From an uncultured Candidatus Marinamargulisbacteria bacterium (GTDB lineage Bacteria; Margulisbacteria; Marinamargulisbacteria; SXXA01; JAHFDB01): 64,000 nucleotides of DNA. Positions 48,001 through 51,000 of the stretch are shown piece by piece. Made by a program: the position numbers. The stretch's first letter is position 1. Each line of letters begins with the position of its first letter. The stretch is taken from positions 115,371 to 179,370 of the forward strand of contig CAZFCP010000001.1 in NCBI GenBank assembly GCA_964517775.1, read 5' to 3'.

Positions 48001-51000
48001 TTCATCATAATGATGCATAAAAAAAGATGCCACATTCTGGCCTAAAAAAAACAGGGTATAGTGTGTGGATGGATAAGCGGTTAAATAACGTTCCATCCAG
48101 CTTTCAAAAAGGTCATCTCCGAAGTAGGCATATAAACGAGGATAATCCTCCTGCAAGGATTCCAGACACCGAGGCCAAAAATCTCCAATATAAATATCCA
48201 AACGCTCGTCTGCTGACAGATGTCTCGATGGCAGTAAAAAGGTGCTGCATTGCGCATGTTTATCCTCTTCAGGTAAAGAGGATACGGCATCAGCCATCCA
48301 GGATTGTATCGTTAATAACGCTTCAGGAGGTTTTGGTTCCAGAATCAACCGGGATCTCCGTAAGAGCGCGCTGCCATAATTGCTTTGCATAGGAAAGCTC
48401 GGCCAGCAGCTCGTTTAATGGTGGGATTTTATCGTCACGTTCAATCATAACAGACGCATTCTGGAAACGTGGGACGGCTTTCATGTACAGTTCCCAGACT
48501 TCATCCCGAATCGTGTGATCGTGGGTATCCAGAATATAAGTGCCTTTATCTGTATGTCCTGCAATATGAAACTGCACAACACGTTCGGCTGGAACGCCAT
48601 TTACAAAATCCATTGGATTAAACGTATGATTAAATGAGGACACAAAAATATTATTGATATCCAGAAGAATGCCGATATCAGCTTTTTCAGCAATATCGCT
48701 GATAAACTGCCATTCTGTCATCACAGAATCCTTAAACTCAACATAGCTGGATACATTTTCCAGCAAAAATGGCTTTTCCATAAAATCCTGGATAATTCGG
48801 GCGCGGTCTGCCACATAGGCAACCACGTCAGGAGTGTAGGGAAGAGGCATTAAATTATGCAGATTAAAAGAGTTGTATTTACTCCAGCACAAATGATCCG
48901 AAAACCACGGCGGATCCAACCGTTGCACCACTTTTTTAAGTTTTTTCAAATAATCCCAGTCCAATGGATCGGCACTTCCAATAGACAAAGAAACCCCATG
49001 AGGAACCATACGGTAACGCTCTCGAAACTGATCGAGATAATATAAGGCTCTACCGCCTTCCATCATAAAGTTTTCGGAGATAATTTCCAGCCAGTCTACT
49101 TTTGGAGATTCTTCAAGTAAATCAGAGTAATGGGAAGGACGAAGACCAAGACCAAATCCGAGAGTCGGAAGTTGGGATTTAATGTTTGAAAAAGAAAAGG
49201 TACTCATAAAAAAAAAGAGGGCAGGATTTACCTGCCCTTCTAACCAGCTTAGTGAGCTGCTTTTTCTTTACCTTTTGTTTCTTTAGCGTCTTTTGCTTTA
49301 GCATCTTTTGCTTTAGCAGCATCTTTACCTTTGCAGCTGTGTTTACCTTTGCAGCCTTCTTTGCCTTTGCAAGCTTCTTTACCTTTACAACCGTTTTTGC
49401 CTTTGCAGCTATTTTTCTCTTTCTGAGCTGTTGCTGCTGGCTTTTTTGTTTCAGTTGCGCCTGGTTTAGTCGCTTCTGGTTGTGCAGCCATAGCAACACC
49501 TGTCATTAGGAAAAGTCCAGCTACTGATGCAGCCAATAAACGTTCTTTTTTCATTTCAAAGACTCCTTAAGGAAATATTTTATAAGAATATTCTGCTCGA
49601 TCACCCAATGAAAGTCAATCTCTCCGTCACCCCGCCACCACAAAAACCCCATATCACAAATCTTTACCTGCGCAATTTCTCGCGCAGGGAGTGTATTCCA
49701 AATACATGACCGCAGCGAAAATTGTGCAGGTAAAGATTTGGTGGCGGCGACTAGATTCGAACTAGTGGCACCACGGGTATGAACCGTGTGCTCTAACCAA
49801 CTGAGCTACGCCGCCAGAAAAACACCCCAAAAAGGACTCTTATTGTAGAAAGATTTTTCTATTTCAGCAAGCTTATTTTAAGCCAACCTATTTTATCGCC
49901 CCCTTCAAATGATCCCTCACCCGGCCATCACTCAACACAATCACATCAAACCGAGACGGCGGCTCCTCCGAATAAAAACGCATCATATAATATCGGGCCG
50001 TCTTCAAAAGCTTTTTAATCTTCGACGGCGTAATGGCCTCCAAAGGATCCATCAGGCTATTCTCTTTATACGACTTAACCTCCACAAAAACCAGCGTATC
50101 ATTGTCTTGAGCAATAATATCAATTTCCCCATATTTAGATGTAAAATTCTGCCTCACAATAGAATAGCCCTGAAGCTGCAGATATTCCAAAGCCTGCTCT
50201 TCTCCAGCCGTTCCCAGCTGTTTAGATAAAAGTCCCATTAAAACAGCTTCTGCTGCTGAGACACGTTAAAGGTTTTACGGTGGACATCACTAAACCCATA
50301 CTTAAATACTGCCTCCATGTGGTCCTGGGTTCCATAGCCCTTATGTTGTAAAAATCCGTATTGGGGATGAGCACAATCCAACTTTTTCATAATGGTATCC
50401 CGTGTTACTTTGGCAATAATGGACGCCGCAGAAATGGCAGGCACCAAAGCATCTCCCTTAACCAGGGTTTTCACTTCATACCCAGGCAAAGTCGGTGCTT
50501 TATTTCCATCCACAATCACCGTAAATCCAGAGGGATCATCGTCCTGCCCCAAAGCCTGCACAGCCCGTTGCATGGCTAACAGTGTGGCCTTCAGAATATT
50601 GAGTTTATCGATAAGAATATGATTCACAATTCCTATACCAATGACAGACCCTGACGCATTTAAAGCCTCGTAGGCTTGCTCGCGTTGTTGGGCAGATAAC
50701 ACCTTGGAATCGCTTAACAGAGTAAGTGGAAAATCCGGAGAGAGAATCACAGCCGCCGCCACAACAGGACCAGCTAAGGCTCCTCGCCCAGCTTCATCTA
50801 CACCGATAACAGGCTTATCCGTCACAACGTGTTAGCCGTTGTATTTTCGGATAATCAATACTCCGTTATGTCCGCCAAAACCAAAGGAATTGGACATAAC
50901 CACATTAACATCAGCTTTTACAGCAACATTAGGGGTATAGTTCAGATCACAAACTGGATCAGGATTTTCAAGGTTAATCGTAGGAGGAATCATTCCGTCA

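What the first reader, a model, noticed from the sequence alone, without database searches (positions are those of the whole stretch)
49324..49413. Precursor core built from five 18-nt tandem DNA repeats (NSCKGK/NGCKGK/EACKGK/EGCKGK/HSCKGK)
Repeat-encoded cores allow copy-number variation of metal-binding units. Every Cys is followed by K-G-K. This is a different local context from the methanobactin or HvfA (EGKCG-like) sites I remember. It suggests a new substrate motif for an MNIO enzyme. The alternative frames of the same repeats produce the spurious K-rich ORFs in the track.
Basis: seen in the sequence. Interest (0 to 1): 0.65.

Follow-up and report, generated by a model that had tools for sequence, protein, structure and literature searches.

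The report
Repeat-built bufferin-type copper peptide precursor
The five 18-base repeats are real and encode the cysteine-bearing core of a small secreted peptide that the neighbouring iron enzyme most likely turns into a copper-binding natural product, but this "Cys-Lys" type of peptide and its enzyme are already described, so it is a new member of a known family and not a new chemistry.

Summary
Observation confirmed. Window 49324..49413 (minus strand) is exactly codons 48-77 of a 101-aa ORF (49249..49554). They encode NSCKGK-NGCKGK-EACKGK-EGCKGK-HSCKGK, preceded by a Sec-type signal peptide and followed by Cys-less DAAKAK/DAKAK units.

The ORF heads a four-gene minus-strand operon: precursor, MNIO (passes the NCBIfam MNIO_BufB cut-off), DUF2063 partner, DoxX. 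This is the canonical bufferin/captophorin cluster.

- Cys followed by Lys-Gly is the hallmark of Buf2 bufferins and of the published "Cys-Lys" captophorin group. In Buf2 the Cys that are modified to 5-thiooxazoles sit in that context.
- The window MNIO carries the published Cys-Lys determinant, Asp after the catalytic Asp (ERDD). An HvfB-type structure has ERDF.

The precursor is an atypical member. It has 5 Cys at pure period 6, lacks the two terminal Cys that are left unmodified and thought to form the disulfide in Buf2, scores below the BufA2 HMM cut-off, and has no predicted fold.

Relatives with the same operon carry 3 to 13 Cys. The sister locus has 7 units after a recent internal duplication, so copy-number variation is real.

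Verdict: genuine RiPP precursor core, new member of a known kind, modest interest.

The parts
49590..49618 (-). Promoter-like site TTGACT-17-CAGAAT upstream of the precursor gene
   Evidence: Consensus scan, 9/12 matches. The number of such sites in the region is not above shuffles, so this is weak evidence.
49563..49568 (-). Shine-Dalgarno AAGGAG, 8 nt before the ATG of the precursor
   Evidence: Read directly from the sequence.
49249..49554 (-). Precursor gene (bufA-like), 101 aa including stop
   Evidence: ORF list. Weak BufA2 HMM hit, 23 bits, E 6.9e-5. 349 representative clusters at E<=1e-3 in an exhaustive search.
49486..49554 (-). Sec-type signal peptide MKKERLLAASVAGLFLMTGVAMA, predicted cleavage AMA|AQ
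   Evidence: Basic n-region, hydrophobic h-region and AxA site read from the sequence. No lipobox. Signal peptides are the rule in bufferin precursors (PMC11626156, PMC12452194).
49414..49485 (-). Cys-free linker AQPEATKPGATETKKPAATAQKEK between signal peptide and core
   Evidence: Translation. Possible partner-protein contact region; this is inference only.
49324..49413 (-). Core: five 18-nt units encoding [N/E/H][S/G/A]-C-K-G-K, the predicted modification sites
   Evidence: Homologous hexapeptide arrays sit next to MNIOs in L001, L167 and L169.
49252..49323 (-). Lys/Ala-rich tail DAAKAK-DAKAK-DAKETKGKEKAAH made of degenerate Cys-less units (period 15-18)
   Evidence: TRF period 15, 95% matches; translation. 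The same DAAKAK unit occurs between Cys units in P0133 and P0142.
49208..49238 (-). Hairpin (8 bp, 6 GC) plus T9 run between the precursor stop and the MNIO ATG; terminator/attenuator-like
   Evidence: Scan. RNA fold -21.9 kcal/mol, z = -2.99. Similar long-stem hairpin plus T-run in about 10 of 29 related loci, including L001.
48323..49207 (-). MNIO enzyme (BufB type), 294 aa
   Evidence: NCBIfam MNIO_BufB 337.9 bits (cut-off 310). Pfam MbnB_TglH_ChrH E 4.9e-104. Keeps 62 of 68 near-invariant columns, including D258-D259. ERDD versus ERDF in 3BWW.
47548..48390 (-). DUF2063 partner protein (BufC/HvfC-like); ORF overlaps the MNIO 3' end
   Evidence: Pfam DUF2063 45.4 bits and NGO1945_C 27.7 bits, both above cut-off. 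NCBIfam HvfC 51.4 bits, below its 142 cut-off.
47100..47534 (-). DoxX membrane protein (BufD/HvfX-like)
   Evidence: Pfam DoxX 79.1 bits. NCBIfam HvfX 68.7 bits, below its 80 cut-off.

Best explanation
The repeats encode the core of a ribosomally made, Sec-exported peptide of the bufferin/captophorin class, 'Cys-Lys' group. Shown here: the gene anatomy, family assignments, the enzyme determinant and the distribution of relatives. Inferred from published homologues: in the cytoplasm the MNIO (BufB type) together with its DUF2063 partner oxidises the Cys of the x-x-C-K-G-K units to 5-thiooxazole rings (-4 Da each). The acidic residue after the catalytic Asp (D259) contacts the Lys that follows each Cys. 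The signal peptide then takes the peptide through Sec and is cut at AMA|AQ. This gives a 78-residue, Lys-rich (23 Lys, pI 9.7), probably unfolded periplasmic peptide whose thiooxazoles chelate copper and buffer copper stress. All five Cys share one context and the two flanking Cys that are left unmodified and thought to form the disulfide in Buf2 are absent, so I expect all five to be modified. The tandem hexapeptide design lets site number change by DNA duplication or deletion. The hairpin plus T-run after the precursor gene probably keeps precursor transcripts in excess over enzyme transcripts.
For: - Operon order is precursor, MNIO, DUF2063, DoxX. The MNIO passes the MNIO_BufB cut-off: 337.9 bits against 310.
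- The precursor has an RBS, a signal peptide, and purifying selection on CKGK in this frame.
- About 65 of the 80 closest MNIOs sit behind canonical BufA2 precursors whose Cys are in x-x-C-K-G context. 38 further metagenome loci show the canonical 6-6-7-6-13/14 spacing.
- The window MNIO has ERDD, as do 67 of the 80 sequences screened (the window plus 79 relatives), while the H. somni HvfB-type structure 3BWW has ERDF. Gadgil et al. report Phe-to-Asp at this site as the Cys-Lys determinant and model BufB2-Asp251 contacting the substrate Lys (PMC13097082).
- In Buf2 the four central Cys each lose 4 Da and the outer two stay unmodified. BufB plus BufC are necessary and sufficient; DoxX and the signal peptide are dispensable for the modification; the function is copper buffering (PMC11626156).
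- The 5-thiooxazole assignment is confirmed for bufferins and extended to EGKCG peptides.
- Hexapeptide-array relatives have the same operon: L001 with 7 units, and P0129/L167 with 5 Cys plus a K/A tail. P0127/L169 with 9 Cys is confirmed only as precursor followed by MNIO, on a short contig.
- AF2 gives no fold: pLDDT 50.6.
Against: - No experiment exists on this peptide or on any pure CKGK array. The chemistry, the number of modified Cys and the metal are extrapolated from enzymes 50-55% identical or less.
- The precursor fails the BufA2 HMM cut-off (23 bits against 60) and has 5 Cys, not 6.
- The partner and DoxX proteins fall below the NCBIfam HvfC/HvfX cut-offs.
- No copper-linked regulator or transporter was seen in the parts of the window I examined (44-55 kb).
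- The MNIO gene has no visible Shine-Dalgarno sequence, because the T-run abuts its ATG.
Confidence: 0.8

Rival explanations
1. Same system, but only some of the five Cys are modified. The others stay as thiols or form a disulfide, as the outer Cys pair does in Buf1 and Buf2.
For: In Buf1 and Buf2 the first and last Cys are left unmodified (PMC11626156). The weak BufA2 HMM alignment spans residues 20-90 of the precursor, i.e. the whole Cys array, and covers profile positions 4-74 of 79.
Against: All five Cys have the same C-K-G-K context. In BufA2 the unmodified outer Cys have other contexts (V-x-C-x-G; x-x-C-x-x-x-G-G). An odd number of Cys cannot pair completely. No fold is predicted that would bring two Cys together. 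In repeat-type EGKCG peptides every Cys is modified (fontiphorin 7, bulbicupramide 6).
Confidence: 0.12
2. The peptide is modified as proposed but serves a metal or stress other than copper (for example Hg, Zn, Ni or an oxidative stress), or acts as a polycationic envelope-associated peptide.
For: MerC-bufferin fusions and other contexts suggest roles beyond copper (PMC12452194). No copper gene was found next to this operon. The Lys content is unusually high: 23 of 78 residues.
Against: Every characterised member binds copper and is linked to copper stress: Buf1, Buf2, oxazolin, fontiphorin, bulbicupramide.
Confidence: 0.1
3. The ORF is a secreted Cys/Lys-rich metal-binding peptide that works through plain thiolates (metallothionein-like). 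The MNIO acts on something else or on nothing.
For: Cys-x5-Cys arrays could bind soft metals unmodified. No direct evidence of modification exists here.
Against: The A-B-C gene order is strictly conserved and the enzyme carries the matching Cys-Lys determinant. No other Cys-rich small ORF lies before the MNIO. Free thiols in the oxidising periplasm would form disulfides.
Confidence: 0.04
4. The repeat is non-coding or a chance ORF in a simple-sequence tract.
For: Low-complexity DNA gives long ORFs in several frames.
Against: Only this frame has an RBS, a signal peptide and homologues. Variation between units is synonymous in this frame. There are 349 related clusters, many confirmed next to MNIOs.
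Confidence: 0.01

Closest known systems
Bufferin 2 (BufA2/BUF_6/12Cys with BufB2-BufC2) of Caulobacter vibrioides and its homologues (PMC11626156; PMC12452194)
   Same: Sec signal peptide. Cys in x-x-C-K-G context at mostly 6-residue spacing. MNIO of BufB type above the NCBIfam cut-off. DUF2063 partner. Same gene order. The nearest MNIO relatives almost all serve BufA2 precursors.
   Different: Five Cys at 6-6-6-6 where BufA2 has six at 6-6-7-6-13/14. No outer Cys pair of the kind left unmodified in Buf2, and no C-terminal C-x-x-x-G-G region. BufA2 HMM 23 bits against a cut-off of 60; a Legionella control scores 88.6. No predicted fold. Lys/Ala-rich tail. DoxX is present here and absent from the C. 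vibrioides buf2 cluster.
'Cys-Lys' group of captophorins (Gadgil et al. 2026, PMC13097082)
   Same: Defined by multiple Cys-Lys motifs next to an MNIO-PME1 (DUF2063) pair, and by Asp replacing FonB-Phe250 in the enzyme. Both hold here. 1,172 Cys-Lys repeat-type clusters are tabulated.
   Different: No member made only of tandem hexapeptides has been characterised. The literal motif CKGK was not found in the texts or supplements I could search.
Acidobacterial/metagenomic 6-, 9- and 12-Cys peptides KHSCKGKNDCKGQGGCKSSDNGCKGKNSCKGKGGC (uncharacterised)
   Same: Contain CKGK itself. Signal peptide. Same four-gene operon. Modular copy number.
   Different: Built from a 3-Cys module with 6-6-7 spacing and GG turns, not from a single hexapeptide. 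They score higher on the BufA2 HMM (32-51 bits).
HvfA/oxazolin, fontiphorin, gonophorin, bulbicupramide (Buf_EGKCG, 'Lys-Cys' group)
   Same: Tandem short repeats, each carrying one modified Cys. Copy number varies between strains (5-8 in Microbulbifer). MNIO plus DUF2063 plus often DoxX. Product is thiooxazoles that bind copper.
   Different: The repeat is the 5-mer EGKCG, with Lys before Cys and Gly after. The enzyme has Phe after the catalytic Asp. FonBC does not process NACKG substrates. The window MNIO is below the HvfB cut-off (261.6 against 360).
Methanobactin (MbnA/MbnB/MbnC)
   Same: MNIO-family enzyme acting on Cys of a ribosomal peptide to give a copper chelator.
   Different: MbnB HMM 54 bits against a cut-off of 325. 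No MbnC. Leader peptide in place of a signal peptide. Oxazolone-thioamide product. Secreted chalkophore for copper uptake.

Membership tests
Bufferin/captophorin gene cluster (bufABCD) | MNIO (DUF692) enzyme of the BufB type | tested here: met
   NF050167 MNIO_BufB 337.9 bits, cut-off 310. PF05114 E 4.9e-104. 62 of 68 near-invariant columns kept.
Bufferin/captophorin gene cluster (bufABCD) | DUF2063/RRE-type partner gene directly after the MNIO; gene order A-B-C | tested here: met
   PF09836 45.4 bits and PF22106 27.7 bits, both above cut-off. Order is precursor, MNIO, DUF2063, DoxX on the minus strand. The NCBIfam HvfC equivalog is below cut-off (51.4 against 142).
Bufferin/captophorin gene cluster (bufABCD) | [quoted passage not shown] | tested here: met
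   MKKER / LLAASVAGLFLMTGV / AMA|AQ read from the sequence. No dedicated signal-peptide predictor was available.
Bufferin/captophorin gene cluster (bufABCD) | Cys converted to 5-thiooxazole; copper binding | not testable with these tools
   Needs MS/NMR and metal titration. Known for homologues only.
BufA2 family (NCBIfam NF050166; BUF_6/12Cys) | HMM score at or above the curated cut-off (60 bits) | tested here: not met
   23 bits. L001 scores 12.4 and a Legionella BufA2 control 88.6.
BufA2 family (NCBIfam NF050166; BUF_6/12Cys) | Six (or twelve) conserved Cys, with the outer pair unmodified and thought to form a disulfide | tested here: not met
   Five Cys, spacing 6-6-6-6, all in the same context. 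The canonical spacing 6-6-7-6-13/14 is seen in relatives.
BufA2 family (NCBIfam NF050166; BUF_6/12Cys) | Modified Cys in x-x-C-K-G context | tested here: met
   All five units are x-x-C-K-G-K, matching the central Cys contexts of the BufA2-type precursors. Buf2's four central Cys are the modified ones.
Cys-Lys group of captophorins (PMC13097082) | Multiple Cys-Lys motifs in the precursor | tested here: met
   Five C-K dyads.
Cys-Lys group of captophorins (PMC13097082) | Asp (not Phe) immediately after the catalytic Asp of the MNIO | tested here: met
   Window ...MIERDDKIPP... aligned to 3BWW ...LLERDFNFPP.... ERDD in 67 of the 80 sequences screened (window plus 79 relatives); EWDD/EWDE in the chlamydial ones.
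HvfA/Buf_EGKCG/oxazolin (Lys-Cys group) | Repeated EGKCG 5-mers | tested here: not met
   No K-C dyad or EGKCG in the ORF. No HvfA-type model hit at E<=0.1.
HvfA/Buf_EGKCG/oxazolin (Lys-Cys group) | HvfB-type MNIO above the curated cut-off | tested here: not met
   NF003818 261.6 bits against a cut-off of 360. Asp in place of Phe at the determinant site.
Methanobactin system | MbnB-type MNIO with MbnC and a leader-bearing MbnA | tested here: not met
   TIGR04159 54.1 bits against a cut-off of 325. The partner is DUF2063, not MbnC.

The most novel reading that the evidence does not exclude
Pure tandem [D/E/N]-x-C-K-G-K hexapeptide arrays (this window, L001, P0127, P0129-P0132 and similar) could be a distinct, uncharacterised subclass of Cys-Lys captophorins. 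They would be unfolded, disulfide-free, polycationic periplasmic peptides in which every Cys becomes a thiooxazole. Metal capacity would then be tuned simply by gaining or losing 18-nt units, unlike the fixed-site folded mini-proteins Buf1 and Buf2.
Probability: 0.35. Interest if true: 0.4.

Novelty: new member of a known kind. Interest (0 to 1): 0.25.

Why it matters
The finding correctly flags a small RiPP precursor gene that curated models do not name: the best HMM hit, BufA2, is at 23 bits against a cut-off of 60. It also shows that the Cys-Lys branch of the bufferin/captophorin family includes simple tandem-hexapeptide precursors whose number of metal-binding sites varies (3-13 Cys), in parallel with the EGKCG branch. 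That gives a clean natural series for asking how an MNIO-DUF2063 pair processes iterated sites, and how thiooxazole number relates to copper capacity. It does not reveal a new enzyme chemistry or a new substrate rule, since the Cys-Lys context and its enzyme determinant are published.

Tried and rejected
- The word-indexed search with the single precursor found only 3 homologues. A profile search and an exhaustive phmmer search were needed to see the family.
- Literal searches for CKGK-type strings in the supplements of PMC12452194 and PMC13097082, and for 'CKGK' plus 'MNIO' in the paper library, found nothing relevant. I therefore cannot show that this exact array has been listed before.
- The genome and metagenome scans with the MNIO found no relative closer than 67% and 60% identity. 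A strain-level copy-number comparison was not possible. The exact precursor occurs only on a 2.6-kb copy of the same locus, plus one further contig in the 0.2-1 Mb size class that was read but not shown.
- The source organism could not be named.
- The AlphaFold2 model was of low confidence (pLDDT 50.6). I used it only as a weak sign of disorder and ran no fold search.
- I considered and rejected membership of HvfA/EGKCG, methanobactin and strict BufA2 (see the membership tests).
- I considered and rejected the K-rich and F-rich alternative-frame ORFs as genes.
- Rfam found no known RNA near the operon other than the tRNA.
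Full report
**1. The observation**

On the minus strand, window 49413..49324 is exactly codons 48-77 of a 101-aa ORF (49554..49249):

MKKERLLAASVAGLFLMTGVAMA|AQPEATKPGATETKKPAATAQKEK-NSCKGK-NGCKGK-EACKGK-EGCKGK-HSCKGK-DAAKAK-DAKAK-DAKETKGKEKAAH.

- Tandem Repeats Finder reports a period-18 array (4.9-6.3 copies, 73-74% matches). It also reports a period-15 array in the Cys-less tail.
- CKGK occurs five times in the six-frame translation of the 64-kb window, all of them here. Composition predicts about 0.7 occurrences, and five in phase has an expectation of about 7e-22.
- The 18-nt units share 12-15 bases. All differences lie in the first two codons or at synonymous third positions of the Cys and Gly codons. 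The CKGK block is therefore conserved as protein in this frame and is not a fresh DNA duplication.
- The K-rich ORF 49179..49499 and the plus-strand ORFs over the same bases are other frames of the repeat.

**2. What surrounds it**

The ORF has an AAGGAG ribosome-binding site 8 nt before its ATG. It has a typical Sec signal peptide: a basic n-region, a hydrophobic core and an AMA|AQ cleavage site.

An 8-bp GC-rich hairpin followed by nine T lies downstream, at 49238..49208. Its fold energy is -21.9 kcal/mol, z = -2.99. It ends directly at the ATG of the next gene. Three genes follow on the same strand:

| Gene | Coordinates | Evidence |
|---|---|---|
| MNIO enzyme | 49207..48323 | NCBIfam MNIO_BufB 337.9 bits, cut-off 310; Pfam MbnB_TglH_ChrH E 4.9e-104 |
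| DUF2063/NGO1945_C partner | 48390..47548 | Pfam DUF2063 45.4 bits, NGO1945_C 27.7 bits |
| DoxX | 47534..47100 | Pfam DoxX 79.1 bits |

This is the bufABCD layout of bufferin clusters (PMC11626156; PMC12452194). The MNIO retains 62 of the 68 columns that are at least 95% conserved among 80 relatives.

**3. Relatives**

A scan of one genome per species with the MNIO gave 80 loci at 48-67% identity. About 65 of them have a canonical BufA2 gene just upstream. These precursors have 6 or 11-12 Cys, for example Legionella maceachernii [46 protein letters not shown].

In these precursors the central Cys are followed by Lys-Gly or Lys-Ser/Thr and are 6-7 residues apart. A metagenome scan gave the same picture: the spacing 6-6-7-6-13/14 dominates.

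The MNIO closest to the window (L001, 64-67% identity) is its sister in a neighbour-joining tree. L001 has a precursor made only of CKGK hexapeptides, seven of them: DSCKGK NGCKGK DACKGK NGCKGK HK DSCKGK NGCKGK DACKGK. Two 54-nt blocks in L001 are 50/54 identical and all four differences are synonymous. That marks a recent internal duplication.

An exhaustive phmmer search of 1.84 billion representatives found 349 clusters at E<=1e-3. The top 142 break down as follows:

| Precursor type | Count |
|---|---|
| 3-Cys-module type (6-6-7-6-6; KHSCKGKNDCKGQGGCKSSDNGCKGKNSCKGKGGC), mostly from Acidobacteria | 104 |
| Canonical BufA2 | 3 |
| Pure period-6 arrays | 9 |
| Other, mostly arrays with spacers | 26 |

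Across the arrays, Cys number ranges from 3 to 13. Where I looked, these precursors sit in the same operon:

- P0129, with 5 Cys and a K/A tail: A-MNIO-HvfC_N-DoxX.
- P0127, with 9 Cys, before an MNIO.
- Acidobacterial P0006 and P0035: A-MNIO-HvfC_N-DoxX.
- P0002, before a fragmented MNIO gene.

**4. The 'new motif' claim**

The literature already covers the Cys-Lys context.

- In Buf2 the first and last Cys stay unmodified. The four central Cys each lose 4 Da, consistent with 5-thiooxazoles (PMC11626156). In the BufA2-type precursors recovered here the central Cys sit in x-x-C-K-[GST] contexts.
- Gadgil et al. divide the precursors of MNIO-DUF2063 clusters into DUF2282, Lys-Cys (EGKCG) and Cys-Lys groups. 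They tabulate 1,172 Cys-Lys repeat-type clusters (PMC13097082).
- The Lys-Cys enzyme FonBC does not process NACKG.
- Cys-Lys enzymes have Asp where FonB has Phe250, next to the catalytic Asp. BufB2-Asp251 is modelled against the substrate Lys.

I tested that determinant here. The window MNIO reads ...MIERDDKIPP..., while the HvfB-type structure 3BWW reads ...LLERDFNFPP... at the aligned position. Of the 80 sequences screened (the window plus 79 relatives), 67 have ERDD; the chlamydial ones have EWDD or EWDE. L167 and L169 also have Asp there.

Enzyme and substrate therefore both match the published Cys-Lys class. The second Lys (CKGK) is also common in the acidobacterial peptides.

**5. What is unusual**

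- The precursor is not a BufA2 by the curated model: 23 bits against a cut-off of 60. L001 scores 12, the acidobacterial type 32-51, and a Legionella control 88.6.
- It has five Cys at strict period 6. It lacks the outer Cys pair that stays unmodified in Buf2, and it lacks the C-terminal C-x-x-x-G-G region.
- AlphaFold2 with a 24-sequence alignment gives no fold: mean pLDDT 50.6, pTM 0.18, no secondary structure. Buf1 and Buf2 are predicted to fold as small proteins.
- The mature 78-residue peptide has 23 Lys and a pI of 9.7.
- The tail consists of Cys-less copies of the unit (DAAKAK, DAKAK). The same DAAKAK unit appears between Cys units in P0133 and P0142.

In architecture it resembles the EGKCG repeat peptides, in which every Cys is modified and copy number varies between strains (5-8 in Microbulbifer, PMC12538549). 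It uses the Cys-Lys site instead.

**6. Mechanism**

Shown here:
- gene order and family assignments;
- the signal peptide and the selection on CKGK;
- the enzyme determinant;
- copy-number variation among relatives;
- a hairpin plus T-run after the precursor gene, which recurs with long stems in about 10 of 29 related loci, including L001.

Inferred from homologues:
- the MNIO-DUF2063 pair converts the Cys to 5-thiooxazoles before export;
- Sec exports the peptide and signal peptidase cuts at AMA|AQ;
- the thiooxazoles bind copper in the periplasm;
- DoxX is accessory.

My own inferences:
- all five Cys are modified, because they share one context, their number is odd, and there is no fold;
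- the hairpin keeps the precursor transcript in excess over the enzyme transcript.

**7. Verdict**

The feature is real and correctly recognised as an MNIO precursor core. The ideas of a repeat-built core and of copy-number variation hold. The claim of a new substrate motif does not hold. I file it as a new member of the known Cys-Lys bufferin/captophorin kind. It belongs to a little-noticed tandem-hexapeptide sub-type that curated models miss. Interest is modest.

Noticed in passing
window 49739..49815 (-) and 49657..49740: A tRNA-Met (CAT) gene lies between yraN and the precursor gene. It is followed at once by a 22-nt inverted repeat (arms 49719-49740 and 49657-49678, 95% complementary, 40-nt loop). 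The repeat ends about 40 nt upstream of the promoter-like site of the precursor gene. It could be a tRNA terminator or processing hairpin, or an operator.
   Followed up: partly
window 46206..47099 (-): A YitT/DUF2179 membrane-protein gene starts on the base after the doxX ORF ends, so it may be co-transcribed with the operon. It is absent from the sister locus L001, where accA follows on the other strand.
   Followed up: partly
window 49205..49217 (-): The MNIO ATG directly abuts the T9 run of the hairpin and has no recognisable Shine-Dalgarno sequence. This suggests weak or unconventional translation initiation for the enzyme relative to the precursor.
   Followed up: no
window 48323..48390: The DUF2063 ORF, read from its first ATG, overlaps the 3' end of the MNIO gene by 68 nt. 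A similar overlap (41 nt) occurs in L001, so coupled translation or a later true start is possible.
   Followed up: no
L083 (NCBI GCA_013565695.1, contig JACCDT011739363.1): The exact precursor, with RNase HII and yraN upstream, also sits on a 2.6-kb contig of a very large, fragmented assembly. Sibling accessions JACCDS and JACCDH appear among the metagenome contigs. The window's own proteins are on a 220-kb unnamed NCBI contig. The organism stays unidentified.
   Followed up: partly
L010, L014, L020, L032-L034, L040, L053, L097, L100 (Methylophilaceae/Methylotenera loci): These BufA2 precursors have 11-12 Cys and a lipoprotein-like signal (…LAGCA…). In effect the central C-K units have been doubled. 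This is a second route to more sites within the same family.
   Followed up: no
L023, L026, L038, L046, L071, L076, L107, L108, L129 (Chlamydiae loci): Chlamydial precursors are longer (135-170 aa). They carry a lipobox-like signal, a conserved helical segment (…KKKF.ELD..HKMM..EMA…) before the 6-Cys module, and C-[AN]-G in place of C-K-G at several sites. Their MNIOs have EWD[D/E] in place of ERDD.
   Followed up: no
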